Shown: piece by piece, positions 6,690-63,801 of the stretch
Numbering within the stretch: the first letter of the stretch is position 1
Layout: each line of letters begins with the position of its first letter
NCBI GenBank assembly: GCA_041648335.1
Contig: JBAZPG010000002.1
Coordinates: forward strand, 30,528 to 94,527
Length of the DNA: 64,000 nucleotides
Direction of reading: 5' to 3'
Source: Candidatus Micrarchaeia archaeon
Lineage (GTDB): Archaea; Micrarchaeota; Micrarchaeia; Norongarragalinales; Norongarragalinaceae
Translations under genes and position numbers: made by a program
Notes under the pieces: generated by a model
What the model saw: the letters and a program-made list of their open reading frames with translations, nothing else
The model's database searches: none
Told to the model about the DNA's origin: nothing

Positions 6690-6790
6690 CTATAGAACAT
6701 ATACAAAACACCTATTATTATAGGTATTCTGTATTTTGCGGCGGGTTGCCCGGTAGCTGTTCCGCGGCCGGGTTAAAAAACGATTTCCAA
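6690..6790. promoter_or_regulatory. AT-rich divergent intergenic region with near-palindrome acctat-tatt-ataggt (6710-6725) and TATA-like tracts; candidate parDE promoter/operator
   Basis: Palindrome sits about 20-36 nt upstream of the parD start; GC drops sharply relative to flanks. Confidence 0.35.
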
Positions 6791-6887
6791 CCCGTGCCTG
6801 CCGGTGGAGATGCCTCGTTTTTGTTTCGAGTCCGCGCGTTTTGAGTGCCAGCCGAGGTTATAAGGCGGGCTTGCCAGTAATGTTTTT

Positions 6888-7962: not shown

Positions 7963-7980
7963 GTGCCGGCGGGTGTTGGT

Positions 7981-8397
7981 TCAGCGGAGTGATACGTGGT
8001 GGTGGCGGAAGCGCTGCCACACGCTCGGCTCCTTATTCGTGAGCGTCACCGTGCGGTCGTCGTGGATGCGCGCGTGCGCGTGCTTTGCGTGCAAGCCGTG
8101 TGCACGGAATGCCTCGCGCAAGGCGGCGCGTTCGCGTTCGACTATGCTGCGGCTGTAATACATTCCCGCGAGGATTACGAGCGCGAAGAACAGGGGCGCG
8201 TTCGACAGGACGAATTCCGTTAGCGGGTGGATTGCCGTGCGAAGTATTATGGGGTGTGCGGCGAGCGCGCTCAACGCCAGCGCGGTTAAGCCCAGGGCTT
8301 CGGCAGCGTAGTAACGCGCGCGTAACGCCACGAAGCGCGAGACGCGCGCGCGCAACGCCGCGGGTAACTCGGCGTGCGCGTAGTGCCGGTCCTTCAC
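7981..8397 (-). CDS. Hypothetical membrane protein, translationally coupled (ATGA overlap) to the herA stop
   Basis: 138-aa ORF with 2-3 hydrophobic helices; start overlaps herA stop by 4 nt. Confidence 0.45.
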
Positions 8398-9836: not shown

Positions 9837-9846
9837 TTGAAGCACC

Positions 9847-10833
9847 TCAAATCCTATCCAAGTAATCGTGAGCGTCCACGGTTGCGGAGTCGCGTTCGAT
9901 TTCCCGCCACGCTTCCACGCCGAGTTCCGCCGCGGCAACCGTGCGCAACTGCCTTGCCTCCTCGAAGGACACGCGGGCGCGCTTGTCTGCATCCACCAAG
10001 CCGTACGGGTAACCGAGGAACGCCAAGTCCGCGGACTGGAACGCGAGCGCAGGAAGAACGCTGAACGGGTCGCACCCGCGCTTGACTTCGAAGCGGAAGC
10101 AGTGCGTCGCGTTCTCGTGGAGTTTGGCGACGAACAAGTCCGCGTCGTGGTCGGGCTCCGCGTTCACGCAAAGCGGACCGTACACCCAGGGCGCCTTGCG
10201 GGCGCCGGCGAGGCGTGCGACCGCGGACACGAGCGGCAGTCCCGTTGTAGTGTAAAGCGAACTCGTCTTGGCGAGCGCCGAGAACACGCCTTTCGCTTGC
10301 GCGTACGCGCTTTTCGCGTAAGCCGCTTCGTTCGTCACGCTCGACTGGAGCGTGCCGTCCCGCACTGGGTTCTCGCACGCACCCGCCAGGATCCATTCGG
10401 CGTAACGCCGCGCAACGGCACCCAGGGCGCTCGGGGGTGCCTTGAACCCGCCTTGCGCGAGCGAAGGGTCAACCCAATCCAATGCAACGATGTCGTCGAG
10501 TAGCTTTTCGCCGCTCAACTGCAGCGTTTTTGCAGTCAAGAGCATCTTGCCGCCCGACGGTTCGACGCGCGTGATTACGAGGAACTCGGATTCGCGCGAG
10601 CCCGTGCGCGCGGCGCCGTCGAAAGTGTTCGCGTAAATGCGCACGAGCTGGATTGAGAGGTTCGGCGTGTTCACCACGCTCGCGTTGCCTCCGTCCACGC
10701 ACGACAGCAAGCCGGGTTCGGCGTCGAACGAGCGGAAGCGCGCCTCGTCGAACGCGAGCGAGCGGTAGCGCGGGTCCGTGAACAGCGGTTCGCCCAGCTC
10801 GGTTGCGTGCGGCTTCAAGTCAAGGGAGAACAT
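9847..10833 (-). CDS. nurA: NurA-family 5'-3' nuclease
   Basis: About 330 aa with N-terminal VDGGNASV (NurA D-G-S-type motif) directly upstream of herA, the canonical nurA-herA pairing. Confidence 0.65.
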
Positions 10834-18800: not shown

Positions 18801-19151
18801 ATGTTCAAGCAAGCCATAATCCTGCGTTCGGATTTGGGCATGGGAAAAGGCAAACTCGTGGCGCAAGGAGCACACTCCTCATTAGAAGCGTTCCACGAGG
18901 CGCAGAGGAACAACGCGCTCGCGGCAATCGCTTGGCGGCAGGGCGGCGCGAAGAAAATCACGTTAAAAGTGGATAGCGAAGCCGCGCTCCTCGAGTTGCA
19001 CGCGCAAGCGAAGCGGGCGAAGCTCCCGTGCGCCTTAATTCGGGACGCGGGGCACACCCAAGTCGAGGCGGGCACGATTACCGCGCTCGCCATCGGGCCC
19101 GCTTCGGACGGGGCAGTGGACAAGCTCACGGGCGACTTGAAGCTACTCTGA
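18801..19151 (+). CDS. pth2: Peptidyl-tRNA hydrolase, archaeal PTH2 type
   Basis: MFKQAIILRSDLGMGKGKLVAQGAHSS matches the PTH2 N-terminus; about 116 aa from the internal ATG at 18801. Confidence 0.8.
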   Translation: MFKQAIILRSDLGMGKGKLVAQGAHSSLEAFHEAQRNNALAAIAWRQGGAKKITLKVDSEAALLELHAQAKRAKLPCALIRDAGHTQVEAGTITALAIGPASDGAVDKLTGDLKLL

Positions 19152-20100
19152 TTGCTTTGCCTGAAACCGCTTTTTTCAAGAATTCTTTTGCACCTGGCGG
19201 AAGTGTTATGTTACGTATGCTGCGCGCTATCACCGCCCTGCGAGCTTTCTTCGTGCCCATTCCGGACACGAGGTTGCGTAAGTATTCGACTCCCCCGTTG
19301 GGCATATGTTCCTCCATTTGGTATGCTTCCCGTCCCAAAAACGTGCCCAGCCAGTATGCGTTTGATTTCTCGTTTTTTTCTACGTCTTCTTTTTCTTTTG
19401 GCTCCTCGGCAGCCATAATCTCTTCGTGAGTGTATTCCGGTTGGCTTTTCGCAGTCACAACTATTTTTGTGCCTGCAGGGTAATTGGTAACCATTGCGGT
19501 GTATTTTCCGATTGCATTCACTATTGCGTGTGGCAGTTCCAAGGCGTGCCCGGTTTCATGGGACATTACCTGCGCAACAAAGATTTCCGCGGACTTTGGA
19601 ATCCTTTGTTCTGTATATTTTTTGATTGGACCCACAGTTATTAATCGTAATCCATCTATTCTACCACATCCAGCGGATTCTTCTTCAAAGCGGGTTCCAG
19701 CCAATATAATCCGAGCTTTAAGGTTCGGTCTTTTTGCTTTTGCTACCCTGAGGGTGGTGAATATTCCCCGTATTGCCGCATTTTTTTGCGATGGTGTGAG
19801 CTGGTTCCAACGGCTTTCATTAGGCCAATCGTATTCTTCAGCAAGTTCTCTGGCGCGTTCCAGACTCTTTTCGGCGAGTTTCCTCAAACCTTTTTCAGCT
19901 TCACTCTTCAACAACGCTTCTTTCTCTTCCGGTGTTAGACTAAAACAATATCTTAAATCGTTTAAGATTTCCCGCGCTCTTTCTGGTTGATTGTGAATGG
20001 CGTCGGCTGCTTCGTGCAAGTTGTCTGCATTATCTATTTCCCGAGATAAGTGCAAACCCCGGCAGTTCATTTGCGATTCGGAGAATTTCTCTTCAGGCAT
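19126..20100 (-). CDS. HExxH zincin-like metallopeptidase of unknown family, in a low-GC (about 47%) segment
   Basis: HETGHALELPH motif; Lys/Glu-rich; GC clearly below flanks (eye estimate from AT-rich runs). Confidence 0.5.
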   Translation of the reverse strand: MPEEKFSESQMNCRGLHLSREIDNADNLHEAADAIHNQPERAREILNDLRYCFSLTPEEKEALLKSEAEKGLRKLAEKSLERARELAEEYDWPNESRWNQLTPSQKNAAIRGIFTTLRVAKAKRPNLKARIILAGTRFEEESAGCGRIDGLRLITVGPIKKYTEQRIPKSAEIFVAQVMSHETGHALELPHAIVNAIGKYTAMVTNYPAGTKIVVTAKSQPEYTHEEIMAAEEPKEKEDVEKNEKSNAYWLGTFLGREAYQMEEHMPNGGVEYLRNLVSGMGTKKARRAVIARSIRNITLPPGAKEFLKKAVSGKAIRVASSRP

Positions 20101-28256: not shown

Positions 28257-29339
28257 ATGAAACTCGACGACGTGCTGGTAAAGGGGAAGAAGAACGTAAT
28301 CCAAGTCGCGCCCGCGGTGCGCGTCACGCTCGGCGAACTCTACGGTTTGCCTGCGGGCACGCCGGCGACCGGGAAAGTCGTGGGCTGCCTCAAGGCGTTG
28401 GGTTTTGACTTCGTATTCGACACGAGCTTCGGCGCCGACGTCGTGGTGGCCGAGGAGAGCGCGGAGCTCGCCAAGCGCCTCAAGGACGGCGGTCCGTTCC
28501 CGATATTCAACTCGTGCTGTCCCGGTTCGGTGCTCTTCCTCGAACACGCCTACCCCGAGCTCGTGCCCAGCATAGTCACGGTGAAGAGCCCCATGGAAGT
28601 CACCGGCTCGCTAATCAAGTCGTATTTCGCGGAGAAGAAGAAAATCGCGCCCTCGAAAATAAATTCCGTGGCGTTGATGCCGTGCATGATAAAGAAAACC
28701 GAAGCCAGGAAGCCGGAGTTCGACTTCGAAGGCATCCGTCCCGTGGACTGCGTAATCACCACGGTCGAACTCGCCGCCCTGCTCGAAGAGGCGGGTGTGG
28801 ACTTCAAGAAGGTTAAGGAATGCGCGTTCGACGACTTGCTTGGTGTCGCGTCGGGTGCGGGACAGATTTTCGGTTCGAGCGGGGGCGTAAGCGAGGCATC
28901 GATACGCAACTACGCTTTCCTCAAGGGGTTGCCCCTCGAGAAGCTGGACTCGAAGCCGCTCCGCGGTTCGGAGGGCTTGCGCGAGGAAACGTTCGACTTG
29001 GGCGGCGAACGCGTGAGCGTCCTGGTAATCAACTGTTTGAAGAACGCGCCGGCTGCGCTCTCGGACAAGAAGCGCCTTGCGAAATACAATTTCGTGGAAA
29101 TGATGGCGTGCCTGGGCGGCTGCGTGGGCGGCGCCGGACAGCCGCCCTCGACGCTCGAGACGCTCGAGGCGCGCCGCAAGGGGCTTTACGGAATCGACGC
29201 CGGCGCGCGCGTTAAGGTCGCCGCCCAGAACCCCCAGATTAAGGCGCTTTACGATTCCTACCTCGGGGAACCGAGGAGCGAGAAGGCGATGCGTATCCTG
29301 CACACCCAGCACGACAAGGTGTGCCAGCACTGCGCTTGA
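28257..29339 (+). CDS. [FeFe]-hydrogenase catalytic H-cluster domain protein (HydA-like, no accessory FeS domain)
   Basis: L1 FNSCCPGS..YPELVPSIVTVKSPMEVTGSLIKSY, L2 VALMPCMIKKTEARKPE, L3 VEMMACLGGCVGGAGQP; N-terminus KGKKNVIQVAPAVRVTLGE..LGFDFVFDTSFGAD matches the start of the CpI H-domain. Confidence 0.8.
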   Translation: MKLDDVLVKGKKNVIQVAPAVRVTLGELYGLPAGTPATGKVVGCLKALGFDFVFDTSFGADVVVAEESAELAKRLKDGGPFPIFNSCCPGSVLFLEHAYPELVPSIVTVKSPMEVTGSLIKSYFAEKKKIAPSKINSVALMPCMIKKTEARKPEFDFEGIRPVDCVITTVELAALLEEAGVDFKKVKECAFDDLLGVASGAGQIFGSSGGVSEASIRNYAFLKGLPLEKLDSKPLRGSEGLREETFDLGGERVSVLVINCLKNAPAALSDKKRLAKYNFVEMMACLGGCVGGAGQPPSTLETLEARRKGLYGIDAGARVKVAAQNPQIKALYDSYLGEPRSEKAMRILHTQHDKVCQHCA

Positions 29340-34193: not shown

Positions 34194-35030
34194 TTAGAGT
34201 ATGCCCGCGGTCGAGAGGAACTCGAAAACGAGGAGGGCGAGCGGCACCGCGAGCGCAGCATAAACCACGGTCTTCTTCGGGTTTCCATCCACCGACGCCG
34301 CGTAATACGACGAAAGCAGGGCGAACAACGCCAGGTAAACCCGGCTGCCCAGCGCCACGGCGTCAACGAGGCGCGCCCGCTCCACCGCGGATAGAGAGGA
34401 GAACGAGCTCAAACCGTCCGTCAGCCCGGAGTTCAATTCGGCCGTGATGTTCAACAACAACGCGAGTATCACGGGCACGAGGAACGCCGAGGCGGCGAGC
34501 ACGGTGTACTTCTGCATCGCGAGCCCGGCCGCGGTCTCGCGCTCGAGCAACTGCATTTCCAGCAGGTCCTCCGCGGTTTCCTTGAACGCGTCGCGCTGGT
34601 CCCCGCCCGTCTCGCTCGCGTTCGCGAGCATCCCCGCCGCGCGCGAGAACAACACCGAACCGTTTTCAACCGCGGTTTTCTCGAGCGCCCGCGCGATTGG
34701 CGAACCGGCGCGCACCCGCCTTGCGGCGCGGTCGAACTCCTCGCTCAACGCGCCGTAACCGCTCCCGGCTATGGACTCCATCACGTCTTCCACGCCGTGG
34801 CTGCGCGGCTGCGAGGCGGCCTGGAGCAGGGCGTCGGGGAGTGCGTCCTCGATTTCGCGGATGCGCGCCGAAGCGCGGTAGTCCCAGTAGGCATAGGCGA
34901 GCGCGGACGGAACGAAGAGAGTGGCAAGGAACGCGAGCGCGCCAGCCGCGAGCGGCAAGTCGAGGAAGGCGAGCTCGAGCAAGGCGAGCGCGGTGGAGGC
35001 GGCGGCAACGCGCGCGAGTTTTTCACGCAT
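34194..35030 (-). CDS. Type IV pilus/Tad-system inner-membrane platform protein (T2SSF-domain, TadC/FlaJ-like)
   Basis: TM helices flanking a cytoplasmic T2SSF-like helical domain (LPDALLQAAS...GSGYGALSEEFDRAARRVRAGSPIARALE). Confidence 0.6.
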   Translation of the reverse strand: MREKLARVAAASTALALLELAFLDLPLAAGALAFLATLFVPSALAYAYWDYRASARIREIEDALPDALLQAASQPRSHGVEDVMESIAGSGYGALSEEFDRAARRVRAGSPIARALEKTAVENGSVLFSRAAGMLANASETGGDQRDAFKETAEDLLEMQLLERETAAGLAMQKYTVLAASAFLVPVILALLLNITAELNSGLTDGLSSFSSLSAVERARLVDAVALGSRVYLALFALLSSYYAASVDGNPKKTVVYAALAVPLALLVFEFLSTAGIL

Positions 35031-35829
35031 TCCCTTTCACCTTCGGGCTCGACTTCTTCAGGTAATAGAGTATCGCGGCATCCGCGAGCGGGAACACGGC
35101 GAAGTAAGCAAGGAGTATCTGTTCGGGGGTGAACGCCGCCTCGAGGAACGCGGAGCCGATTACCGCGTACGCCCCGAAGAACGCCGGGACTATGCCGCCC
35201 ACGGTGACGAACACCAGCCCGAGCACGCTTTGCTTGGCCGCGTGCTTCCTCATTTTTTCGCGTTGAAGGGAAGTCAACTGGTCCGCAAGGCGGCGGAGCC
35301 CCTCGGTTTTCCCGCGCTCGAAGGCGAACGACAGGTGCGCCGCAGCGCGCCGCACGTGCACCGAGTCGATTCGTTCGCCCATCGAGGCCAGGGCGCGCGG
35401 AAACGAATGCCCGCGCTTGACGTCCGCGAGCACGCGCGAGAATTCGCGTCCCGCCTCACCGTAACCCGCCGCGCTCTCGAGGGCGCGCTCGAAAGGCGCG
35501 TTCAACGAGAGCTCGGTCGCGAGGGTGCGCAACGCAAAAGGCAAGTCGGCTTCCACGAGTTCGGCGCGCTTGCGTGCCTTTCGGGCGGGATAGGTTGATA
35601 GGCGGGCGAATGCAAGCGCGAACGAAGCTGCTGCCGCTGCAGCTGACAAAGCGATGCCCGCGTTCAGCGCCAACGCCGTTGCGAGCGCCGCGAGCGCGCA
35701 GGCAACCGAGGCAACGAGTGAGAAGCCGAGCCATTCGCCCGCACCAGTTTTCATCCCCGCCTTGCGTAGCGCCTCCGCGGTAGTGCGGTTGGCGCGCCCG
35801 TCGAAGAGTTTGCCCGCGTCGAATTCCAT
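35023..35829 (-). CDS. Type IV pilus/Tad-system inner-membrane platform protein (T2SSF-domain, TadB/FlaJ-like)
   Basis: LPFALRTLATELSLNAPFERALESAAGYGEAGREFSRVLADVKRGHSFPRALASMGE T2SSF pattern; overlaps the next gene by 8 nt. Confidence 0.6.
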   Translation of the reverse strand: MEFDAGKLFDGRANRTTAEALRKAGMKTGAGEWLGFSLVASVACALAALATALALNAGIALSAAAAAASFALAFARLSTYPARKARKRAELVEADLPFALRTLATELSLNAPFERALESAAGYGEAGREFSRVLADVKRGHSFPRALASMGERIDSVHVRRAAAHLSFAFERGKTEGLRRLADQLTSLQREKMRKHAAKQSVLGLVFVTVGGIVPAFFGAYAVIGSAFLEAAFTPEQILLAYFAVFPLADAAILYYLKKSSPKVKGNA

Positions 35830-35859
35830 CCTGCGTGCGGTTTGGTCTAGCGTTCGATT

Positions 35860-37290
35860 TCACCCGTACAAGTAGTCGTTCACCGCTTGCGTGAACCCGG
35901 CGTTATCCTTCCAATTGTTTTTCGAGAGGAGGACGGCGCGTTTGGCGTGCTCGGCTTGAAAGCCGCGGCGGTCGAAACCATAATTCTTCGAGAGTTCAGC
36001 GAACACCGCGTTGCTGGAGTAGTTCGCGGTGCGTTCGAGCGAATCCGTTTCCGGAACGTAAGCATACAGGGGCCGCGCCTTCCCGCATTTGACTTCAGAT
36101 ATTTCGGTGACGCGGCGTTTCTCGCTTTGGGTGCGCGTCGCCTTGTCATAGGATAGGAAGCGGCGTTGGACGAGCACGAGGTCGATTGCGTTCACTTCGT
36201 CCTCGCGTCCGCCGAGGGTCTTGAGGCGGGCGAGTGCCTCGTCCCCGGTGGAAGCGTGCATTGTCGCGTAAGAGCCGCGCGCCTGCCCCGAGAGCAGGGA
36301 GTCGAACAACGCGGCGGCCTCGGGCGCGTCGCGTATTTCCCCGATGATTACGCGGTCGGGGCGCATGCGCAGCGAATCCTTCACCAAATCCTTGAGCCCG
36401 ATGCCCAACTCCTCGTTCGCCACCAGGCACACCTTGTGCTTGTGCGGCACGTTTATCTCGGGGGTCTCCTCGGTGATTACCACGCGGTCGTTGAGCGGGA
36501 CGAACGAGAAGAGCGCGTTTAACGTCGTGGTTTTCCCGGAGCCGGTGGAGCCGGCGACCACGAGGCTCGTCTCGCCGTAGAGTGCGAGCCAGAGGAAGGC
36601 AGCGGCATCCGCGGAAAGCGTGCGGTTCTCCACGAGTTCGGGAACCGTGAACGGCTTCTCCCGAAACTTGCGGATGGTTAGTTCCACGCCGTTCAAGGCG
36701 AGCGGCTTTATGGTGGCGTGGAGGCGCGAACCGTTCGGGAGCACCGCATTCAAGCGCGGGCTCTGGAGGGTGAGCCGCCTGCCCAGCGAGCGCGCCATCC
36801 TGTTCGCGGCGTTCACGCAATAATCCCTGCTTGTAATCGTGCAATTCGTCTCGAGCCAGCCGCGCGAGCGGTGGAACACGCGCACGGGTTCGTTCACGCC
36901 CGTCACCGCGATTTCCTCGAGTTCGTCGTCCGCCAGCATTTCCCCGAACGGGCCGTAACCCGCGCTTTCCGTTGCGGCGCGGAGCACGCGTTCCGCGGAT
37001 TCTTTCCCGAGCAGTAGGCTGTGGCGGGCGCACATCTTCTTGAGGAGGGCGCGCAACGCGCCTTCGTCCGGCTCTTGCTCTTCCTCGAAAGCGTCCAGCA
37101 GCGCAACGAGCAGGCGCTCTTCCTCGGGGTTCAAGTCGAGTTCGGGGAGCGCGTACTCTGCCTTGCCCGCGATTTTCCAACCCAGCGAGTCGGCTTTCAC
37201 CATGAGAGTTCGTCGCCCGCTTTCACGCCGTTGGACGAGGGCGCTTCGATTAAGTAACGCGCGTTCGGGCAGGAAACCCAAATGCGCCAC
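35860..37290 (-). CDS. Secretion/pilus assembly ATPase of the VirB11/CpaF/TadA (FlaI-like) family
   Basis: Walker A AGSTGSGKTTTLNAL, Asp box, Walker B VIIGEIRD, His box GSYATMHAS. Confidence 0.8.
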   Translation of the reverse strand: MAHLGFLPERALLNRSALVQRRESGRRTLMVKADSLGWKIAGKAEYALPELDLNPEEERLLVALLDAFEEEQEPDEGALRALLKKMCARHSLLLGKESAERVLRAATESAGYGPFGEMLADDELEEIAVTGVNEPVRVFHRSRGWLETNCTITSRDYCVNAANRMARSLGRRLTLQSPRLNAVLPNGSRLHATIKPLALNGVELTIRKFREKPFTVPELVENRTLSADAAAFLWLALYGETSLVVAGSTGSGKTTTLNALFSFVPLNDRVVITEETPEINVPHKHKVCLVANEELGIGLKDLVKDSLRMRPDRVIIGEIRDAPEAAALFDSLLSGQARGSYATMHASTGDEALARLKTLGGREDEVNAIDLVLVQRRFLSYDKATRTQSEKRRVTEISEVKCGKARPLYAYVPETDSLERTANYSSNAVFAELSKNYGFDRRGFQAEHAKRAVLLSKNNWKDNAGFTQAVNDYLYG

Positions 37291-51271: not shown

Positions 51272-52597
51272 ATGCCCGACGGATTACTAAGATGCTATAT
51301 GAACAAGCGCATTTTCGCGTTGCTGTTTTTGTGCCAGTTCGCGGCTGCCGGCGGCTCGCCCTTGATTTGCACTAATTACGATGTCACTACCGAGCTTACC
51401 TTGTCGGGCGCGGTTAGTGCTTGCTACCTGTACGTCCACCCGGGCGCTAGCCTGACTATACGCGATGCGGCAGTCAATGTTTTCGAGGACGGCAACATCA
51501 CGGTTGATGCGGGCGGCTCGTTCGCGGCGCGCAACTCCAGCTTCGCCGGCGGAACGCAGACGTTCGCGTTGTTTTCGCCGGGCTCCGCGGTGCTCTTGGA
51601 GTCCGTGGACGCGCACGGTTTCGGGGTGCCCGCCGCGGGCAAGACCGGCTGGACGATTGCCACTGGAACCGCGCAATTGGATAACTTCAGCGTCCACCAC
51701 GGCTTGGACGGGCTCGTGCTCGAACACGCTTCCGGCGCCTCGGTGCGGGGCGGCTCGTTTTACTCGAACTCGCAGTCCGGCTTGCTCGTCTCGATTTCCG
51801 ACGGCGTTTCGTTTTCCCAGGTGAACTCGTCGTACAACCCGTCGCGGTTGGAGTATTCGCGGGTGCGTTGGCTGGACGGCTTCTTCGAGGAAATGGTTTT
51901 CGCGGACGAGGTCTCGCGCCTCGAGCGCGCGTGGAGCGTGCGCTTCGAGTTCAGCGAGGGCGGCGAGCCGGCTGAGGCTATGCTGTCCGTGAGCGATTAT
52001 TTTGGCGATGTTGTTTATTCGTCCTCCGCACCGGAAGAGTACGCGGAGTTCGAGGCGGTTCAGGCGGTTTACGGGCAGGGCTTTTCGGGCGTCCCGTTGA
52101 ACCTCGGGGACGAGTGGACCGAAGGCGCGCGCACCCCCCATTCTTATTCCGCAGTTTCGCCCGGAGGCGTGGTGGTGAGCGGCAAGTTCGAGGCGGGTGC
52201 TGGCGAAGTCGGCGTGTCATTCGCCCAGGAAACCGCGCCGTCTGCTTACCCCGGCTCGCTGTTCACGATACAGGCGCCCTCGAACATCATCGTGAACCCC
52301 CAGGTGACTATTTACGTTGACCTCGTGTTGAACGGCAAGGGTGCCTGCGGGGCCGCGTTGTCCGTGGGCGCCGCATTAATTGCTTTGGAATCCTGCGATT
52401 CCACGACCGGCAGACACGCGTTCCTGCTCTCGCTCACCGAACCCGGAACCTATGAGTTGATTGCGTCTTACGCGGGGCAGACTGCCAAAGCAACGCTGAA
52501 CGTGGTGGGGCAGCCGCCCCTCGCGTTGCCCGACCACTCGGTTTGGAGTGTTTTGTTTTTGTTAGCCGTCGCGCTGTTCGCTTTGAGGAAGAATTGA
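51272..52597 (+). CDS. Secreted surface protein (Ser/Gly/Ala-rich, possible beta-helix) with C-terminal TM anchor
   Basis: Signal peptide IFALLFLCQFAAAG; C-terminal WSVLFLLAVALFAL helix. Confidence 0.45.
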   Translation: MPDGLLRCYMNKRIFALLFLCQFAAAGGSPLICTNYDVTTELTLSGAVSACYLYVHPGASLTIRDAAVNVFEDGNITVDAGGSFAARNSSFAGGTQTFALFSPGSAVLLESVDAHGFGVPAAGKTGWTIATGTAQLDNFSVHHGLDGLVLEHASGASVRGGSFYSNSQSGLLVSISDGVSFSQVNSSYNPSRLEYSRVRWLDGFFEEMVFADEVSRLERAWSVRFEFSEGGEPAEAMLSVSDYFGDVVYSSSAPEEYAEFEAVQAVYGQGFSGVPLNLGDEWTEGARTPHSYSAVSPGGVVVSGKFEAGAGEVGVSFAQETAPSAYPGSLFTIQAPSNIIVNPQVTIYVDLVLNGKGACGAALSVGAALIALESCDSTTGRHAFLLSLTEPGTYELIASYAGQTAKATLNVVGQPPLALPDHSVWSVLFLLAVALFALRKN

Positions 52598-52598
52598 A

Positions 52599-53696
52599 AT
52601 GTCCCGTAATTTGGCTTTACTCAAGAAAGCCGTGACCGCCCACGACGAGCGCGCCGAACTCGAAGTCATCGTGCGCCGACTCAAGGGCGGCGCGGATGAG
52701 CGCGTCAAGCACGAGCCCAGCTCCCGCGTGGCTGCGATAGCCCGCAACTTCCGCGGCGACTCCGAAATCCACGCCGAGTCCCCGGACTTGGAGAAGGCGG
52801 ACGTGCGCGCCATCAAGACCGGACCGCTCTCGCTTCCCGCCGCGTTTTACCGTGCGTTTGCCTCGCCGTTGAACGCGTTCGCCCGCGTCCTTGCCGGCAC
52901 GCCGTGGTTCCAGGACGCGCGCGTCAACTTGGATTGCGCGGGCGTGGTGCTTTCCGTCGAGGCTTACCTGGCGTTGTCGGCGTCGGCTGCCGTGCTTTTG
53001 GGACTCACTGTTTTTGCGTTGTTCGCAGTCCTCGGCTTCGCGCTCGGCGACTTGACGCTCGTGGCGTTCGCGCCCGTCCTCGGTTTGCTCGGGCTGGGGA
53101 GCGCGGTGGCGTTCGCTGCGGTTTACCCTTCCAGCAAGGCGGAGGGCAGGGCGCGCGAAGTCGACCGCGTGCTCCCGTTCGCGTTGCGCCAGCTCGCCAC
53201 CCAAATCAAGGCGGGCGTTAGTTTTTACAGCGCGCTCCGTTCGGTCGCCCAGACGGATTACGGCGTGCTCAGCGACGAGTTCAAGCGCGTGCTCAGCGAT
53301 ATGGCTAACGGGGTGAGCACGGACGAGGCGCTCGCGCGCCTCCTCAAGCGCACGCGTTCGAAGGGGCTGCGCACCGCGCTCACGCAAGTCATCCGCGCGC
53401 TCAAGACGGGCGGCAGTCTGTCCCAGATAATCACGGATATAGCGGACGACGTGTCGTTCGAGTCCCGCATGCGCATCCGCGATTTCACCGAGCGCCTGAA
53501 TTTCATCAACATAATCTACATCATGGTTGCGGTAGTCGCCCCCGTCGGGGCGGCGATCCTGTCGGCGGTGATGCAGATACCAATGTTCTCGGGCGGGCTG
53601 CCGCCGTTCTTCGTTTACTTCGCGTTCGCGGGCGTGACCGTGGCGATGCTGTTGATACTCTACATAACAAAACGCTTGGAGCCGGTGGCATGGTGA
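52599..53696 (+). CDS. Tad/type IV pilus platform protein (T2SSF domain), TadB-like
   Basis: LPFALRQLATQIKAGVSFYSALRSVAQTDYGVLSDEFKRVLSDMANGVSTDEAL. Confidence 0.6.
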   Translation: MSRNLALLKKAVTAHDERAELEVIVRRLKGGADERVKHEPSSRVAAIARNFRGDSEIHAESPDLEKADVRAIKTGPLSLPAAFYRAFASPLNAFARVLAGTPWFQDARVNLDCAGVVLSVEAYLALSASAAVLLGLTVFALFAVLGFALGDLTLVAFAPVLGLLGLGSAVAFAAVYPSSKAEGRAREVDRVLPFALRQLATQIKAGVSFYSALRSVAQTDYGVLSDEFKRVLSDMANGVSTDEALARLLKRTRSKGLRTALTQVIRALKTGGSLSQIITDIADDVSFESRMRIRDFTERLNFINIIYIMVAVVAPVGAAILSAVMQIPMFSGGLPPFFVYFAFAGVTVAMLLILYITKRLEPVAW

Positions 53697-54607
53697 GCTT
53701 TTTAGAATCGCTTTCCACGCGTTACCGCCTCTTGCGCAGGTATTACGCCGCGAGCGGCTTCAAGTATTCCTTCGAATTGTTCGCGCTCGGCTTCGTGCTC
53801 ATTGCATTAACCGTGGCGCTCGCGTTGAACGCGCTCAAGGTGGGCCCCGCGGTTTCTGTGGTTGCCTTCGCTGCGGTCTCGAGCCTCATAATCGCGCTCC
53901 CAATCAGCTCGCGTAACGCGCGCATCGCGGAAATCGAGAAGAACCTGCCGGACGCGTTGAAGCACATGTCGCTCGTGCTCAAGGCTGGCGGCACGGTCGA
54001 GGGTGCGTTACAGGAAGCCGCGGGCGGGGATTACGGTCCGTTGAGCGCCGAATTCGCGCGCGCACTCAGGCAGCTCAAGGAAGGCAAGAGCTTCGAGGAA
54101 GTACTTGTCGGGGCGGCGCGGGACAGCGGTTCGCTCCTGTTCGTGCGCACCGCAACCATAATCGTGGACGCCAAGCGCGCGGGCGCGGGGATGGCGGGCG
54201 TAATCGCGGAGATAGCCGAGGACGCGCGCGATGTTCTCCGCATCAAGCGCGAACGCTACTCGCGCACCACGATGCACGTGCTCTTCCTGGGCGTATCCGC
54301 GATACTGTTGTCGCCGTTCATCTTCGGGTTCACGATAACCATAGTGAATTACATCAGCGTCGGGATTACGAGCGCGATGCCCGGCTCGAAGAGCGGGGTG
54401 GCGTTGTGCGACTTGAACCTCCTGCTCACGGTGTTCATCGCAGTCGAATCCGTCATCTCGGCGTTCGCGATAGGCATAATCCGCGAGGGAAAGATAGCAA
54501 AGTATATATTATACGCGCCGTTCATGATCTTGTTCGCCCTCATCGTCTTCGAACTCGGGAAGTACGCGAGCTCGCTGATCGTCGGGGGCGCGCCGATGGT
54601 GTGTTGA
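53690..54607 (+). CDS. Tad/type IV pilus platform protein (T2SSF domain), TadC-like
   Basis: LPDALKHMSLVLKAGGTVEGALQEAAGGDYGPLSAEFARALRQLKEGKSFEEVL; overlaps neighbours by a few nt. Confidence 0.6.
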   Translation: MVSFLESLSTRYRLLRRYYAASGFKYSFELFALGFVLIALTVALALNALKVGPAVSVVAFAAVSSLIIALPISSRNARIAEIEKNLPDALKHMSLVLKAGGTVEGALQEAAGGDYGPLSAEFARALRQLKEGKSFEEVLVGAARDSGSLLFVRTATIIVDAKRAGAGMAGVIAEIAEDARDVLRIKRERYSRTTMHVLFLGVSAILLSPFIFGFTITIVNYISVGITSAMPGSKSGVALCDLNLLLTVFIAVESVISAFAIGIIREGKIAKYILYAPFMILFALIVFELGKYASSLIVGGAPMVC

Positions 54608-60915: not shown

Positions 60916-61350
60916 ATGTTATTCGCTTACCGCGTTACCGCGGGACAAGAGAGCATCGTGGCTGACTTGCTGCACGAGAAGGCCCGCAAGAAGAAAGTCC
61001 CAATAAACGCGTTCCTCATCTCGCCGCGCCTCAAGGGCTACCTCATCGTCGAGAGCACGAGCGAAGTCGAGGCGAAACAGCTGATTACGAACGTACCGCA
61101 CGTGAAGAGCGTTTTACCGCAGCCGATTCCTTTCGTGGAAATCAAGAGCTTGCTCGAATCCAAGCCCGCGGTGGTGAACTTCAACAAGGGCGATTTGGTC
61201 GAGGTGACGAACGGGCCGTTCAAGGGCGAGCGCGCGAAAGTAGTGCGCATCGACCCCGAGAAGGACGATGTTACGGTGGAACTCGTCGAGGTTGCGGTGC
61301 CGATTCCGGTCACCATCAAGACGGACGCGATAAAGCTCCTGCCGCAGTAA
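60916..61350 (+). CDS. spt5: Transcription elongation factor Spt5 (NGN + KOW)
   Basis: NGN domain N-terminus (FAYRVTAGQESIVADLL), KOW motif FNKGDLVEVTNGPFKGERAKVVRID. Confidence 0.85.
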   Translation: MLFAYRVTAGQESIVADLLHEKARKKKVPINAFLISPRLKGYLIVESTSEVEAKQLITNVPHVKSVLPQPIPFVEIKSLLESKPAVVNFNKGDLVEVTNGPFKGERAKVVRIDPEKDDVTVELVEVAVPIPVTIKTDAIKLLPQ

Positions 61351-61355
61351 CGCGT

Positions 61356-63683
61356 TCAACCGAGCCAGGAGCCGCCCGCATCAACGCACGCCTGCTTGTA
61401 AAACTCGAGAACCCTTTCCGGATAGCGCGCGCCCAAGCCTTCGCCCGTGTCTGGTACTCCATAGTGCGTCCCCGGGCGTCCACAGCAAGCGTTCTGGTCG
61501 TAATTCGAACAGTCGCTTCCACCCGAATAGTATGCCCTACACGCTTCGAGCATTGCGTCCTCGAACAACATGCCACCGTTAATTTTTTGTATTGCCAATT
61601 CCGCGGTGCCCATGCCGCGATTGTAACCAAAAAGCACCATTTGGAACTGCTCCGTCTTGCTTGTGCCAGGCAAATCCGCTTGGACATTATCTAAATCCGT
61701 TGCCAACTTTTCCGTACCGCGGTCTATGTTCTCTTCAACCTCGCAGCCGCCCTCGTTGCCGCAAGTGACTACCTGCATCAAACCCTGGTTGTTATCTTGT
61801 TCGTGGACGCACGAACTCTCAGTCATGATTAAAGCTTCCACCAAACCCAAGTCGAACCCCCGCGAATACAACCCGTTCCGGTACATCGCCGCCTCCAACT
61901 CGGTTTCGTATTTCGTGCAACCTGCGAACGCAGCCGGCGTTTCCGTGACGCTCTGCGAGCACCCGAAAGACGCGCGGTAGGCGCCCGAGTTTATGCGCGA
62001 GTAACCGTAATACTCTGCGATGCCGTCGAATATCGCCTTCGCTGCGGTTCCAGCGAAATCCGCTTGTTCGTAAGCCGGGTCGTCAATTCGCGTCACTTCC
62101 ACTAGAATCGAGGGCGCGCCCGAGTAGAGTACGCCTAACTTGTTGAGATATGACTCGGAGTCTGGAAACAAGCCCCGGTTATCCTCGACCAACGGTGCCA
62201 AGCGGGCGTTAACCGTGGCGGCAACGCGCTTGGATTCGCCGAGCACGCCCGCAGTTGCCTGAATCGGGTAGTAAACCATTCCTATACCTTCGTCACAGGA
62301 GTCGTGGTGAATGCTAACCATCAAATCCGCGTCCCAATCGCGCGCCTTGTTCGCGCGGTCCGTTACTGTCAAGTCTTTTTCGCAGTTTGCGTCAAACAAA
62401 TAAACCTCTGCGCCAGCCGATTTGAGCCAATCTGCAAGTTTTTCACCCACCGCCTTGTTGCGGGAGTATTCCTCGATTCCATTCGTACAAGCCGCGCCGA
62501 AGTCACAGGCTTGCGCATCTGGAAGAACTGCGTGATGTCCTATGTCAACGAATATTTTCTTTCCCGTGAGTGAGTCCGTTATCAATCCCGCACTTGGAAT
62601 TTCCTCGGGCTGTTCGGCTTCCTCTAATTCGGCTTCGAGTTCCTCGCTTTTTTCCAAGTCCGCTACGCGCGAGTGCTCGATCGTGACTTTCACAATTATT
62701 TCCTTTTCCAGTACGAGCGTCTTCAAGCCAATCGTGAGCTTGCCGTCGTAAGCGTCTTCCTTGAACAAGCCATCCGAATCCGTGGGCGCGTCCTCCAAGT
62801 CCACGCGCACGACTCCGTAATACGTTTCGCCGAGCTTCTCGAATTCCACGCTCGCGTACTCTGCGACTCCGCCCGTGAAACGCGTCAACGGCTCCTCATC
62901 CAGCGCGTAAGTAAACGAAAGTTCGCTGTTCGCGGAAGGCTCCAATTCGGATACCTTCAACTCGATTTCGTCAGGCAAGTCGTCAAGCGGGTTTGCAAAC
63001 GGCGTTGGTGTGGGTATTGACTTCACTAGCTCGAGCGCCTCAATCTCGTTTGCCACATCATAGTCCGGGTTGATTATCTTCGCAGTGCGCACCGCGCCCA
63101 CGAACTCGCGCGCGTCCTCCACGATTTCAGCCGACAGTTCTTCCTCGGGCGCGAGCGCCTCGTTCAGCTTCCCCTGTAGCGCAGCAGCCTCGTCCTCGCT
63201 CAAGTCCAGCGAAGCGATATCGCGGAGCAACCCATCGAACGCTACGGCTTGAGCCGCTGCGGCGCCCGGCTTGGTTACCAAATAAATGGGTGCGCTTCCC
63301 TCATCCGCGTATTCTATTGTCTTCTCCTGCGTTTGGTTGGGTGCCAGCGTCACGGACTCCCGCGTTGCAGTCTCGGTGACTTGTTCTTCCAACGGAATCG
63401 GCGGAGTATCCGTTTCTTCTTCCACCGCGCTCGACTCCGGGTTCACGGTGTACAGGTTGAATGAAACGGTTTCGTCGGACGGGTTGTTTATGCTGATGCC
63501 CGCCTTTGTCCCGGCGGCACCGTAGCTCAAGACGAGCGCGGGCTCCGCCAAATACTCGGTTTCCCCTAGAGCGGTCTCCACGCCCACTTGCTCGGCAGTC
63601 GGAGGCACGGGTTGCGAGAAGTAGAGCGCGGCTATGACTAGTAATAGGATGCCCGCGGCGATTGCGATTGTTTTGTCGTCCAT
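61356..63683 (-). CDS. Large exported peptidoglycan hydrolase: N-acetylmuramoyl-L-alanine amidase (Amidase_3) plus lysozyme-like lytic transglycosylase (SLT) domains
   Basis: N-terminal signal/anchor; Amidase_3 pattern IGHHAV..E..N..LVSIHHDS; SLT motif LIMTESSCVHEQDNNQGLMQV ... FGYNRG; Glu/Pro-rich linkers. Confidence 0.7.
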   Translation of the reverse strand: MDDKTIAIAAGILLLVIAALYFSQPVPPTAEQVGVETALGETEYLAEPALVLSYGAAGTKAGISINNPSDETVSFNLYTVNPESSAVEEETDTPPIPLEEQVTETATRESVTLAPNQTQEKTIEYADEGSAPIYLVTKPGAAAAQAVAFDGLLRDIASLDLSEDEAAALQGKLNEALAPEEELSAEIVEDAREFVGAVRTAKIINPDYDVANEIEALELVKSIPTPTPFANPLDDLPDEIELKVSELEPSANSELSFTYALDEEPLTRFTGGVAEYASVEFEKLGETYYGVVRVDLEDAPTDSDGLFKEDAYDGKLTIGLKTLVLEKEIIVKVTIEHSRVADLEKSEELEAELEEAEQPEEIPSAGLITDSLTGKKIFVDIGHHAVLPDAQACDFGAACTNGIEEYSRNKAVGEKLADWLKSAGAEVYLFDANCEKDLTVTDRANKARDWDADLMVSIHHDSCDEGIGMVYYPIQATAGVLGESKRVAATVNARLAPLVEDNRGLFPDSESYLNKLGVLYSGAPSILVEVTRIDDPAYEQADFAGTAAKAIFDGIAEYYGYSRINSGAYRASFGCSQSVTETPAAFAGCTKYETELEAAMYRNGLYSRGFDLGLVEALIMTESSCVHEQDNNQGLMQVVTCGNEGGCEVEENIDRGTEKLATDLDNVQADLPGTSKTEQFQMVLFGYNRGMGTAELAIQKINGGMLFEDAMLEACRAYYSGGSDCSNYDQNACCGRPGTHYGVPDTGEGLGARYPERVLEFYKQACVDAGGSWLG

Positions 63684-63801
63684 TTCGTCTAGTGTTGGTT
63701 AGCAAGGCGTTTTTAATTAGGTTTCTTGCGGGGGGTGCGGAAAGGGTTAAATATGTGCGGGAGGCATTCTCGTTCTTAGCCGTTTGTTATGGTGGGTTTT
63801 C

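What the first reader, a model, noticed from the sequence alone, without database searches (positions are those of the whole stretch)
61356..63683. Two-domain murein hydrolase (MurNAc-L-Ala amidase + lytic transglycosylase) in an archaeal genome
Archaea lack peptidoglycan, yet this 775-aa exported protein combines an Amidase_3-like zinc amidase (IGHHAV...VSIHHDS) with a lysozyme-like SLT module (TESS...GLMQV...YNRG). It sits right next to core archaeal genes (ftsZ-secE-spt5) and has host-like GC, so it looks resident rather than contamination. It would let the cell digest bacterial cell walls, as proposed for DPANN-type episymbionts/predators, or help it compete in biofilms. Two pilus loci and many surface proteins in the same window fit a contact-dependent lifestyle.
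Basis: partly seen in the sequence, partly recalled or inferred. Interest (0 to 1): 0.85.

Follow-up and report, generated by a model that had tools for sequence, protein, structure and literature searches.

The report
Surface-tethered bifunctional murein hydrolase, Micrarchaeon
A tiny DPANN archaeon (Micrarchaeia) carries, among its core chromosomal genes, a membrane-anchored enzyme with two modules that cut bacterial cell wall (a peptide-stripping amidase and a lysozyme-like glycan cutter); the finding is real, but it belongs to a kind of archaeal anti-bacterial-wall enzyme that has already been described.

Summary
ORF 61356..63683(-) encodes 775 aa in four parts:
- One N-terminal membrane anchor.
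- An orphan acidic N-domain of about 340 aa.
- An Amidase_3 domain (Pfam 73 bits, cutoff 27) with zinc ligands and catalytic Glu intact.
- A Cys-rich C-terminal domain.

The gene is resident. It lies mid-way along a 533-kb Micrarchaeia contig, between PolD/PolB and Spt5-SecE-FtsZ, and the synteny is kept in two related genomes. GC3 is somewhat low (0.66 against about 0.80).

The GH23 domain is rare (87 cluster representatives in 1.84 billion), and every named member is DPANN. It is fused interchangeably to Amidase_3, M23, NlpC/P60, M15 or LysM. At the orthologous locus of one relative, M23 replaces the amidase. This points to bacterial murein as the substrate.

DPANN murein hydrolases are already published (2013-2025), including a Micrarchaeal M23B. 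This is a new variant of a known kind, of moderate interest. Enzyme activity and biological role are untested.

The parts
61356..63683 (-). Complete gene (775 codons plus stop) for the bifunctional murein hydrolase
   Evidence: ORF listing. Identical protein P0001 is on record as 'MAG: N-acetylmuramoyl-L-alanine amidase [Candidatus Micrarchaeia archaeon]'. Full-length homologs with the same architecture are P0002 (53% identity) and P0005.
63615..63674 (-). N-terminal hydrophobic segment (aa 4-23, KTIAIAAGILLLVIAALYFS). Inferred to be an uncleaved signal-anchor with N-terminus inside and C-terminus outside.
   Evidence: It is the only Kyte-Doolittle 19-residue window above 1.6 in the protein. 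The equivalent segment is conserved in P0002, P0003 and P0005. There is no AXA-type cleavage motif. Topology is inferred, not tested.
62586..63614 (-). Orphan N-domain (aa 24-366). It is acidic (22% D+E) and has no Cys. Inferred to be a stalk, spacer or targeting module.
   Evidence: No Pfam or PDB match as a single sequence or as a profile, and no database hit. It is shared end to end only with P0002, P0003 and P0005, and in part with P0026, P0046 and P0050. It is the fastest-evolving part, 49% identical to P0002.
62016..62555 (-). Amidase_3 domain (aa 377-556), a zinc MurNAc-L-Ala amidase module. Zn ligands are H383 (62535-62537), E405 (62469-62471) and H459 (62307-62309). The catalytic Glu is E529 (62097-62099).
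   Evidence: Pfam PF01520 E=3.1e-20, 73.4 bits. The profile against PDB gives endolysin 9jzo at 2.7e-14, and CwlD-type 7rag, 4rn7 and CwlV 1jwq at 1e-9 to 1e-10. The GH.., E, SIH and LVE positions are aligned. All four residues are invariant in P0001, P0002 and P0005.
61359..61961 (-). Cys-rich GH23 (SLT / goose-lysozyme-like) domain (aa 575-775). The catalytic Glu is E622 (61818-61820). Motifs are GLMQ 634-637 and YNRG 687-690. It contains 10 Cys.
63710..63754 (-). A/T-rich promoter-like elements upstream of the start codon: TAATTAAAAA at -36..-27 and ATATTTAA at -71..-64. Inferred to be an archaeal TATA box.
   Evidence: Read directly from the sequence. The ATAT(A/T)TAACCCTTT element is conserved upstream of the orthologs in L001 and L003. 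This is suggestive only. No transcription start data were available.

Best explanation
The gene encodes an ecto-enzyme of a Micrarchaeia (DPANN) archaeon that degrades bacterial peptidoglycan.

Anatomy:
- An N-terminal transmembrane segment tethers the protein to the archaeal membrane (inferred).
- An acidic, lineage-specific domain of about 340 aa acts as a stalk or targeting module (inferred).
- Two catalytic modules sit at the distal end.

Chemistry, which follows from the families and was not assayed:
- The zinc Amidase_3 module cuts the MurNAc-L-Ala amide bond and strips stem peptides from the glycan.
- The Cys-rich GH23 module cuts the beta-1,4 MurNAc-GlcNAc backbone. It has a single invariant Glu (E622) and no conserved second carboxylate, so it probably works as a lytic transglycosylase.
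- Cutting both kinds of bond dissolves the sacculus locally. Bifunctional endolysins, autolysins and T6SS effectors work the same way.

Role (inferred): the enzyme is tethered and the cell has type IV pili. It most likely acts on the wall of a bacterium the archaeon touches, opening it for attachment, killing or nutrient extraction.

Relatives at the orthologous locus carry a different peptide-cutting module (M23) in place of the amidase. This suggests tuning to different target wall chemistries.
For: Shown:
- Both catalytic modules are present with intact active-site residues.
- There is a single N-terminal hydrophobic segment.
- There are 14 Cys, all in the two catalytic modules and none in the N-domain. 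This fits an extracytoplasmic enzyme.
- The gene is resident and vertically kept. It lies mid-contig between archaeal hallmark genes. Synteny holds in L001 and in L003, where Spt5 is 87% and FtsZ 82% identical.
- The GH23 module is 69.5% identical between two genomes whose core genes are 66-85% identical, which indicates purifying selection.

Substrate argument:
- The same rare GH23 domain has 87 representatives in 1.84 billion.
- In 20 members scanned it is fused to Amidase_3 (4), Peptidase_M23 (2), NlpC/P60 (3), Peptidase_M15_4 (1) and LysM (1), in either order.
- P0014 lies next to a protein with two Amidase_3 domains and a YkuD domain.
- All these partners are murein-specific and target bonds of D-amino-acid-containing stem peptides.
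- At the orthologous locus, P0003 has M23 in place of Amidase_3 between the same N- and C-domains.

Distribution and context:
- Named members are all DPANN: Micrarchaeota/Micrarchaeia, Diapherotrites, Pacearchaeota, Nanoarchaeota.
- Two type IV pilus loci lie in the window.

Literature proposing the same role for related DPANN proteins: PMC8204110, PMC9723730, and PMC8561730 (extracellular M23B in a 57.5%-GC Micrarchaeon). PMC12352652 shows experimental killing of a bacterium by haloarchaeal M23 hydrolases.
Against: - No enzymatic, expression or localisation data exist for this protein.
- Pfam SLT does not detect the query's C-terminal domain, and structural similarity is moderate (Foldseek TM about 0.5).
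- No recognised wall-binding domain is present.
- To my knowledge, all cultivated Micrarchaeota have wall-less Thermoplasmatales archaea as hosts, and no DPANN-bacterium pair has been cultured.
- Only 84 kb of the 533-kb contig was inspected, so an endogenous murein-like polymer or a purely nutritional recycling pathway is not excluded.
- Whether the N-terminal segment is cleaved (released enzyme) or retained (tethered enzyme) is untested.
Confidence: 0.55

Rival explanations
1. Same enzyme, nutritional role. It digests free peptidoglycan debris (necromass, shed muropeptides) at the cell surface to supply amino sugars and amino acids to an auxotrophic, genome-reduced archaeon. It does not attack living bacteria.
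For: - The genome is tiny (contigs of 528-534 kb).
- A related Micrarchaeon is described as auxotrophic for most amino acids (PMC8561730).
- Tethering would keep products near the cell.
- No toxin, immunity or secretion-system genes lie next to the gene.
Against: - Swapping between chemotype-agnostic (Amidase_3) and cross-bridge or stem-specific (M23, NlpC/P60, M15) modules at a conserved locus resembles target-specific adaptation more than bulk scavenging.
- No muropeptide uptake or catabolic genes (such as NagZ, AnmK or MurQ-like) were seen in the 84 kb inspected.
- D-amino-acid stem peptides are poor nutrients without racemases.
Confidence: 0.2
2. It is a specialised 'hole-puncher', analogous to VirB1, FlgJ or EtgA. 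It clears a path through a partner cell's wall so that a pilus or secretion conduit of the archaeon can pass. Killing or feeding is not the purpose.
For: - A family member (P0020) lies inside a T4SS-like cluster on a contig with archaeosine TGT. The cluster has TraC-like and VirB4/TraG-like ATPases, three T4SS_pilin genes and a 3D domain.
- Two type IV pilus loci lie in the window, the nearer about 7 kb away.
Against: - This gene is not adjacent to any pilus or T4SS gene. Its conserved neighbours are Spt5/SecE/FtsZ and UPF0147/PolD.
- A two-enzyme protein on a stalk of about 340 aa is larger than typical dedicated secretion-system transglycosylases.
Confidence: 0.1
3. The substrate is not bacterial murein. 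It could be pseudomurein of a methanogen host, chitin, or the archaeon's own surface glycan or an endogenous murein-like layer (an autolysin role).
For: - Known Micrarchaeota hosts are archaea (my own knowledge).
- Only part of the genome was inspected.
Against: - Amidase_3, M23, NlpC/P60, M15_4 and LysM partners are all murein-directed.
- By established knowledge, pseudomurein has beta-1,3 linkages, has no MurNAc lactyl-L-Ala bond, contains only L-amino acids and resists lysozymes.
- No mur, ddl or pbp genes are in the 84 kb examined.
Confidence: 0.07
4. It is an artefact: a bacterial or phage fragment mis-assembled or mis-binned into an archaeal contig, or a prophage endolysin.
For: - GC3 is lower than in neighbouring core genes (0.66 against 0.79-0.84).
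- The closest solved amidase is a phage endolysin (9jzo).
Against: - The gene is internal to a 533,585-bp contig with archaeal hallmark genes directly on both sides.
- The identical protein is recorded on contigs in several size classes: one of 20-50 kb, two of 50-200 kb and one of 0.2-1 Mb.
- Neighbouring genes of the same window were also found in another sample, SRR8449827.
- Orthologs occupy the same position in two further genomes from different studies.
- There is no tblastn match in 50,697 phage records.
- No viral genes are nearby.
Confidence: 0.02

Closest known systems
DPANN 'murein-like lytic transglycosylase' proteins (Rinke 2013 and Castelle 2015 as cited in PMC8204110; fam00969 of Woese-/Pacearchaeota; GH23 of Woesearchaeota in PMC9723730)
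   Same: - It is an extracellular GH23/SLT-type domain in genome-reduced DPANN archaea, proposed to bind or degrade bacterial walls.
- The Cys-rich GH23 domain found here also occurs in Pacearchaeota, Nanoarchaeota and Diapherotrites MAG proteins. Some are 1.3-2.7 kaa long.
   Different: - This protein is from Micrarchaeia and has 775 aa.
- It carries a second catalytic module (Amidase_3) and an orphan N-domain.
- Its GH23 module escapes Pfam SLT.
- Identity of the family with fam00969 could not be tested.
Modular archaeal peptidoglycan hydrolases of Strock et al. 2025 (PMC12352652), e.g. Halogranum M23 + PG_binding_1 'Woldo'; three Micrarchaeota entries in their S2 table (LysM+SLT, PG_binding_3+GH108)
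   Same: These are archaeal, exported, bacterial-type murein-cleaving domains. They show domain shuffling and are proposed, and for Halogranum shown, to act against bacteria.
   Different: - Their definition requires a Pfam wall-binding domain. This protein has none, so it falls outside their catalogue.
- Theirs are patchy and plasmid- or small-contig-biased. This one sits at a conserved chromosomal locus among core genes.
- This one has two catalytic modules and a membrane tether.
Extracellular M23B (lysostaphin-like) peptidase of 'Ca. Norongarragalina meridionalis' LFW-144_1 and extracellular GH23 of LFW-156_1 (Micrarchaeia; PMC8561730)
   Same: - Same phylum-level lineage, similar GC (57.5%), very small genome and type IV pili, with the same proposed use against bacterial walls.
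- The M23 variant P0003, at the locus orthologous to this gene, probably corresponds to this kind of protein.
   Different: - That paper reports 'no extracellular CAZymes' for LFW-144_1. If its M23B is the ortholog, the fused GH23 module was missed.
- Here the peptide-cutter is Amidase_3.
- Orthology to LFW-144_1 was not tested.
Bacterial and mobile-element bifunctional wall hydrolases: Tn916-like CTn1-Orf17 (SLT + NlpC/P60, PDB 4hpe), T6SS dual effector TseP (8xcl), bifunctional endolysins and autolysins
   Same: - A glycan-cutting lysozyme-like module is combined with a peptide or amide-cutting module in one polypeptide.
- The amidase module is closest to endolysin/CwlV-type short Amidase_3 domains.
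   Different: - The producer has no murein of its own.
- The N-terminal anchor and the orphan stalk have no bacterial counterpart found.
- The GH23 module carries about 10 Cys in a DPANN-restricted subfamily.
- There is no association with phage, conjugation or T6SS genes at this locus.
Goose-type lysozyme (GEWL) / family-1 lytic transglycosylases (Slt70, MltC, MltE, MltF), CAZy GH23
   Same: The fold, the catalytic Glu in an E-S motif, and the GLMQ and (A/G)YN-G motifs are shared.
   Different: - Sequence identity is 15-25%.
- There is an extra Cys-rich C-terminal extension (CC..GLGARYPEK..AC).
- The GEWL Asp97 position is Val in this protein, and the Asp86 loop is absent (alignment read against the GEWL sequence from my own knowledge). 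This is LT-like, but the chemistry is unproven.

Membership tests
Amidase_3 (PF01520), zinc N-acetylmuramoyl-L-alanine amidase | Sequence matches the family HMM above the curated threshold over the full domain | tested here: met
   73.4 bits against a gathering score of 27, E=3.1e-20. aa 377-556 cover profile positions 1-173 of 174.
Amidase_3 (PF01520), zinc N-acetylmuramoyl-L-alanine amidase | Zn-binding His/Glu/His triad and catalytic Glu | tested here: met
   H383, E405, H459 and E529 align with the GH, E, (S)IH and (L)xE positions of CwlV 1jwq, 4rn7, 7rag and 9jzo. They are invariant in three orthologs. The assignment of these columns as ligands rests on my knowledge of CwlV/PlyPSA-type structures.
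Amidase_3 (PF01520), zinc N-acetylmuramoyl-L-alanine amidase | Constitutively open active site (no AmiA/B/C-type autoinhibitory helix insertion) | tested here: inconclusive
   The domain (about 180 aa) aligns nearly end to end with the short 173-188-aa endolysin/CwlV-type chains. It aligns only in pieces with AmiA/AmiB/AmiC chains. No confident structure of this module was obtained, because the single-sequence AF2 run failed.
Amidase_3 (PF01520), zinc N-acetylmuramoyl-L-alanine amidase | Hydrolysis of the MurNAc-L-Ala bond in peptidoglycan | not testable with these tools
   This needs a biochemical assay.
GH23 / SLT domain (PF01464; family-1 lytic transglycosylases and goose-type lysozymes) | Query matches the Pfam SLT HMM above threshold | tested here: not met
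   No SLT or Lysozyme_like hit for the whole protein, or for aa 563-775 alone even at E<=10.
GH23 / SLT domain (PF01464; family-1 lytic transglycosylases and goose-type lysozymes) | Homology demonstrable at family level (transitive or profile) | tested here: met
   31 of 37 aligned family members match SLT, best E 1.2e-11. The family profile against PDB gives goose-type lysozymes at E 1.4e-6 to 6e-6, MltC at 1.3e-5, and MltF and Slt70.
GH23 / SLT domain (PF01464; family-1 lytic transglycosylases and goose-type lysozymes) | Lysozyme-like alpha-helical fold | tested here: met
GH23 / SLT domain (PF01464; family-1 lytic transglycosylases and goose-type lysozymes) | Catalytic Glu in the E-S motif, plus the GLMQ and AYN-G motifs | tested here: met
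   E622 is invariant. S623 is at least 90% conserved, G634 at least 90% conserved, and Y687-N-R-G690 invariant in 37 members. E622 aligns with the Glu of the goose-lysozyme RES motif, which is E73 by my own knowledge of GEWL numbering.
GH23 / SLT domain (PF01464; family-1 lytic transglycosylases and goose-type lysozymes) | Reaction type: lytic transglycosylase (1,6-anhydroMurNAc product) versus hydrolase (lysozyme) | not testable with these tools
   There is only an indirect hint. No second conserved carboxylate is present: the GEWL D97 column is Val in the query, and the D86 loop is absent. LC-MS of products is needed.
Modular archaeal peptidoglycan hydrolase sensu Strock et al. 2025 | At least one Pfam catalytic PG-cleaving domain | tested here: met
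   Amidase_3. The definition was read.
Modular archaeal peptidoglycan hydrolase sensu Strock et al. 2025 | [quoted passage not shown] | tested here: not met
   No LysM, SH3, PG_binding, SPOR or similar domain in any part of the protein or in its three orthologs' N-domains.
Phage or prophage endolysin | Encoded in a viral or prophage gene context, with similarity to phage lysins | tested here: not met
   The gene is flanked by PolD/PolB/UPF0147 and Spt5/SecE/FtsZ. Synteny is conserved in three genomes. There is no tblastn hit in the phage collection. Only the amidase fold class resembles endolysins.
DPANN large LT-domain family (fam00969, Castelle et al. 2021) | Membership in that protein cluster (Woese-/Pacearchaeota, up to about 3000 aa) | not testable with these tools
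Overlap is plausible because the same GH23 subfamily includes a Pacearchaeota protein (P0012) and proteins of 2.6-2.7 kaa (P0051, P0056).

The most novel reading that the evidence does not exclude
The conserved chromosomal locus next to Spt5-SecE-FtsZ may encode a host-range determinant of a Micrarchaeia lineage that lives on bacteria, not on archaea. In this reading the protein is a membrane-tethered 'wall opener'. Its peptide-cutting cassette (Amidase_3, M23, NlpC/P60 or M15) is exchanged to match the peptidoglycan chemotype of the bacterial partner, on a constant scaffold of stalk domain plus DPANN-specific Cys-rich GH23 domain. This would imply cross-domain episymbiosis or predation by Micrarchaeota, whose only known hosts are wall-less Thermoplasmatales. 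It would also give a sequence-based way to predict bacterial hosts of uncultured DPANN.
Probability: 0.25. Interest if true: 0.75.

Novelty: new variant of a known kind. Interest (0 to 1): 0.5.

Why it matters
Murein hydrolases are among the few genomic clues to who uncultured DPANN archaea interact with. This case adds four points.

1. A hidden GH23 clade. It is Cys-rich, has about 87 clusters, and all named members are DPANN. Standard Pfam-type searches miss it in its closest members, so published counts of 'extracellular CAZymes' or PG hydrolases in Micrarchaeota are probably underestimates.
2. A bifunctional, membrane-tethered architecture without any known wall-binding domain. It falls outside the definition used in the largest survey of archaeal PG hydrolases.
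3. Direct evidence for cassette exchange. Amidase_3 and M23 alternate at an orthologous, vertically inherited locus. This is the pattern expected if the enzyme tracks the wall chemistry of particular bacterial partners.
4. Possible practical use. If active, such enzymes are candidate antibacterial lysins from an untapped source. Their cassette type could be used to predict bacterial targets or hosts of Micrarchaeia.

Tried and rejected
- AF2 on aa 366-775 without an alignment gave pLDDT 36 and was unusable. One structure prediction failed on a frame error.
- Pfam on the C-terminal and N-terminal parts alone found nothing.
- The word-indexed homology search with the family alignment returned one irrelevant eukaryotic SLT protein. 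With the N-domain it returned nothing, not even the query itself. Both were uninformative.
A 5-sequence alignment worked, but it is biased towards close relatives.
- A profile of the N-domain against PDB and Pfam gave only noise, with E >= 0.25.
- tblastn of the catalytic half against 50,697 phage records found no match.
- The AFDB Foldseek library was unavailable.
- Two contig look-ups failed because the longest-ORF starts differed from the called genes.

Rejected ideas:
- Halophily as the explanation for the acidic protein. Cytoplasmic proteins in the window have ordinary pI values of 5-9.6.
- Contamination or chimerism.
- A prophage endolysin.
- A type-IV-pilin-like class III signal peptide. 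No G/A/S at the expected cleavage position is conserved among the orthologs (inspection).
Full report
OBSERVATION. The ORF is exactly as described: 61356..63683 on the minus strand, ATG start, 775 aa. The quoted motifs are at aa 381 (IGHHAV), about 457-462 (SIHHDS), 621-624 (TESS, with the catalytic Glu at E622), 634 (GLMQV) and 687 (YNRG). Pfam Amidase_3 (PF01520) matches aa 377-556 over the full profile at E=3.1e-20 and 73.4 bits, against a cutoff of 27. NCBIfam gives only sub-threshold hits to specific amidase equivalogs such as Rv3717, CwlD and AmiA/B. The protein is therefore a generic Amidase_3 and not an ortholog of a named bacterial enzyme. Pfam SLT does not match the protein, even when aa 563-775 are scanned alone at E<=10. 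The only direct hint was a goose-lysozyme hit at E=0.69 in PDB.

THE AMIDASE DOMAIN. A three-sequence profile hits endolysin 9jzo at 2.7e-14. It hits the germination-type amidase 7rag, 4rn7 and CwlV 1jwq at 1e-9 to 1e-10, and LytH and Rv3717 more weakly. In these alignments H383, E405, H459 and E529 fall on the conserved GH / E / (S)IH / (L)xE columns. From my own knowledge of CwlV-type structures, these are the zinc ligands and the catalytic Glu. All four are invariant in the three Amidase_3-bearing orthologs. The domain aligns end to end with the short endolysin/CwlV type, not with the AmiA/B/C type that carries an autoinhibitory insertion.

THE REST OF THE PROTEIN. There is one hydrophobic segment, aa 4-23, and no other. 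It is conserved in the orthologs and lacks an obvious signal-peptidase site. I infer an uncleaved signal-anchor with the bulk of the protein outside. The 14 Cys are all in the two catalytic modules, 4 and 10 respectively, and the N-domain has none. This fits extracytoplasmic, disulfide-stabilised enzymes. The N-domain (aa 24-366) has 22% D+E and no detectable relatives in Pfam or PDB, as a single sequence or as a profile. The database search also found nothing. Locally it is shared end to end only with P0002, P0003 and P0005, and in part with three other family members. Its function as stalk, spacer or targeting module is inferred from position only.

IS IT RESIDENT IN AN ARCHAEON? Yes.
- The identical protein is recorded as a 'Candidatus Micrarchaeia archaeon' MAG protein on a 533,585-bp contig.
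- The gene is at about 313 kb on that contig. UPF0147, PolD DP1 and DP2, and an intein-containing PolB lie on one side. Spt5 (NGN+KOW), a 59-aa SecE-like protein (PF00584, 22.2 bits against cutoff 22.7), FtsZ, a HAD hydrolase and AMP phosphorylase lie on the other.
- The rest of the window is ordinary archaeal chromosome. It holds Rad50, Mre11, HerA, Hjc, a Toprim primase, aminoacyl-tRNA synthetases, a Cu-ATPase and two T2SSE/T2SSF pilus loci.
- The identical protein is on record on contigs of several size classes. Neighbouring genes of the window were also found in another sample.
- A 53%-identical ortholog (P0002) lies on a 527,582-bp contig from another study with the same neighbours on both sides.
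- A third genome (L003, Micrarchaeota MAG) has the ortholog directly next to Spt5 (87% identical) and FtsZ (82%).
Chimerism, contamination and prophage origin are thereby excluded. There is also no tblastn hit among 50,697 phage records.

The gene's GC3 is 0.66, and 0.60 in the amidase module. FtsZ, Spt5, AMP phosphorylase and most other genes have 0.79-0.84. Composition is therefore mildly atypical, as expected for an old, partly ameliorated acquisition or for cassette exchange. An A/T-rich element conserved upstream of three orthologs fits a native archaeal promoter but is only suggestive.

WHAT THE FAMILY SAYS ABOUT SUBSTRATE. Twenty full-length family members were scanned with Pfam. The Cys-rich GH23 domain is fused to the following partners:
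- Amidase_3 in four (P0001, P0002, P0005 and, in reverse order, P0014).
- Peptidase_M23 in two (P0003 and, reversed, P0025).
- NlpC/P60 in three (P0011, P0016, P0021).
- Peptidase_M15_4 in one (P0007).
- LysM in one (P0017).
- TSP3 repeats plus a T4SS-pilin-like segment in one (P0020).
- Unknown regions in the rest.
P0014 lies next to a 980-aa protein with two Amidase_3 domains and a YkuD domain. P0020 lies inside a T4SS-like cluster on a contig that also carries an archaeosine-type TGT. All the identified catalytic partners are enzymes specific for bonds of bacterial murein stem peptides. That makes murein by far the most likely substrate. It argues against pseudomurein, which by established knowledge has beta-1,3 links, no lactyl-L-Ala bond and only L-amino acids, and it argues against chitin.

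The most telling case is P0003. It shares the N-domain (44% identity) and the GH23 domain (50%) with this protein and sits at the orthologous locus. Yet it has an M23 module where this protein has Amidase_3. This is cassette replacement inside a vertically inherited gene.

Between the window genome and the L001 genome, core proteins are 66-85% identical. The GH23 module is 69.5% identical, the amidase 54.6% and the N-domain 48.7%. The catalytic modules are under constraint and the N-domain evolves faster.

WHO HAS IT. Every family member that carries a source name is from a DPANN MAG. These include Micrarchaeota/Micrarchaeia (P0001, P0005, P0026, P0091, P0096, L003-L005), Diapherotrites (P0009, P0056), Pacearchaeota (P0012) and Nanoarchaeota (L006). 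Most members are unnamed, so bacterial members, for example from CPR bacteria, are not excluded.

MECHANISM.
- Shown: two intact catalytic modules of murein-specific families, one N-terminal hydrophobic segment, residence in an archaeal chromosome, and conservation.
- From established knowledge of the families: Amidase_3 removes stem peptides at MurNAc-L-Ala, and GH23 cleaves MurNAc-beta-1,4-GlcNAc. Together they dismantle the sacculus locally.
- Inferred: the enzyme is displayed on the archaeal surface on an acidic stalk and acts on the wall of a bacterium in contact. The two pilus loci in the window may help, the nearer being about 7 kb away.
I put 0.55 on contact-dependent action on living bacteria, for attachment, killing or feeding. 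I put 0.2 on scavenging of wall debris, 0.1 on a VirB1-like conduit-clearing role, 0.07 on a non-murein substrate and 0.02 on artefact.

COMPARISON WITH WHAT IS KNOWN. The idea is not new.
- Large extracellular LT-domain proteins in Woese-/Pacearchaeota were reported and interpreted in this way in PMC8204110, which cites Rinke 2013 and Castelle 2015.
- GH23 plus pore-forming toxins in 'vampiristic' Woesearchaeota are described in PMC9723730.
- A survey found modular PG hydrolases in about 5% of archaeal genomes and showed bacterial killing by two haloarchaeal M23 enzymes (PMC12352652). Its S2 table lists three Micrarchaeota entries, such as LysM+SLT and PG_binding_3+GH108.
- An extracellular M23B in the 57.5%-GC Micrarchaeon 'Ca. 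Norongarragalina meridionalis', and a GH23 in a relative, were noted with the same interpretation in PMC8561730.
- NCBI's pipeline already labels this protein an N-acetylmuramoyl-L-alanine amidase.

As far as these sources show, four things are new here:
1. The second, Pfam-invisible GH23 module, and the recognition that it defines a small Cys-rich clade whose named members are all DPANN.
2. The tethered architecture of anchor, orphan stalk and two catalytic modules, with no wall-binding domain. It falls outside the survey's definition.
3. Its location at a conserved core-gene locus, in contrast to the patchy, plasmid-biased pattern reported.
4. Cassette exchange at that locus.

VERDICT. It is a new variant of a known kind, not a surprise. 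Interest is about 0.5. The most novel reading that remains open is that this locus is a cassette-tunable host-range determinant of bacteria-associated Micrarchaeia. That reading deserves testing but is unproven (probability about 0.25).

Noticed in passing
window 34194-37290 (-) and window 51272-54607 (+): There are two archaeal type-IV-pilus-like assembly loci. One has two T2SSF genes, a T2SSE ATPase and a small upstream gene. The other has a 441-aa (432 as called) acidic protein with a weak beta-helix hit, followed by two T2SSF genes and then a 408-aa acidic protein without any Pfam match. The second locus is also conserved next to the hydrolase locus in L001.
   Followed up: partly
L002 1182-4739 (just beyond the window's high end; record ~320.7-324.3 kb): The family-B DNA polymerase next to PolD carries an intein with a LAGLIDADG homing-endonuclease domain. 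The same is seen in the relative's contig (L001 1207-4767).
   Followed up: no
window 28257-29339 (+): A 360-aa protein matches the [FeFe]-hydrogenase large-subunit C-terminal domain and the small-subunit domain (Fe_hyd_lg_C + Fe_hyd_SSU). This is unusual in an archaeon with a genome of about 0.53 Mb. It could be a Nar1-like or sensory/truncated hydrogenase.
   Followed up: no
window 19126-20100 (-), and low-GC stretches at about 6-8 kb, 19-21 kb and 30-33 kb: There are compositional islands with GC 0.46-0.52, against about 0.60 elsewhere. The 324-aa ORF at 19126-20100 has GC3 0.44 and no annotation. These may be recently acquired DNA.
   Followed up: no
L009 1-18037 (contig jgi:3300022556 Ga0212121_10000036): A distant member of the same Cys-rich GH23 family (P0020, with TSP3 repeats) sits in a T4SS-like cluster on a contig with archaeal-type TGT+PUA (archaeosine) and CBS genes. 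The cluster has a TraC-like protein, a VirB4/TraG-like ATPase, three T4SS_pilin proteins and a 3D domain. It looks like a conjugation or T4SS-like apparatus in a probable DPANN archaeon.
   Followed up: partly
L010 3241-6183: Next to family member P0014 (GH23-like + Amidase_3) lies a 980-aa protein with two Amidase_3 domains flanking a YkuD (L,D-transpeptidase fold) domain. Together they form a small cluster of murein-directed enzymes on a short metagenomic contig of unknown taxon.
   Followed up: no
window 2887-9992 (-): This is an archaeal DNA-end-processing cluster: Rad50-like SMC ATPase (665 aa), Mre11-like phosphoesterase (401 aa) and HerA helicase (532 aa). It is further evidence of an ordinary archaeal chromosome. 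The gap at 6.1-8.4 kb, which is low in GC, was not examined for NurA.
   Followed up: no
window 61350-61356: The hydrolase gene and spt5 converge. Only 5 bp separate the last base of the spt5 ORF (61350) from the first base of the hydrolase stop codon (61356). In L001 and L003 the two ORFs overlap by about 14 bp. No terminator was looked for.
   Followed up: no
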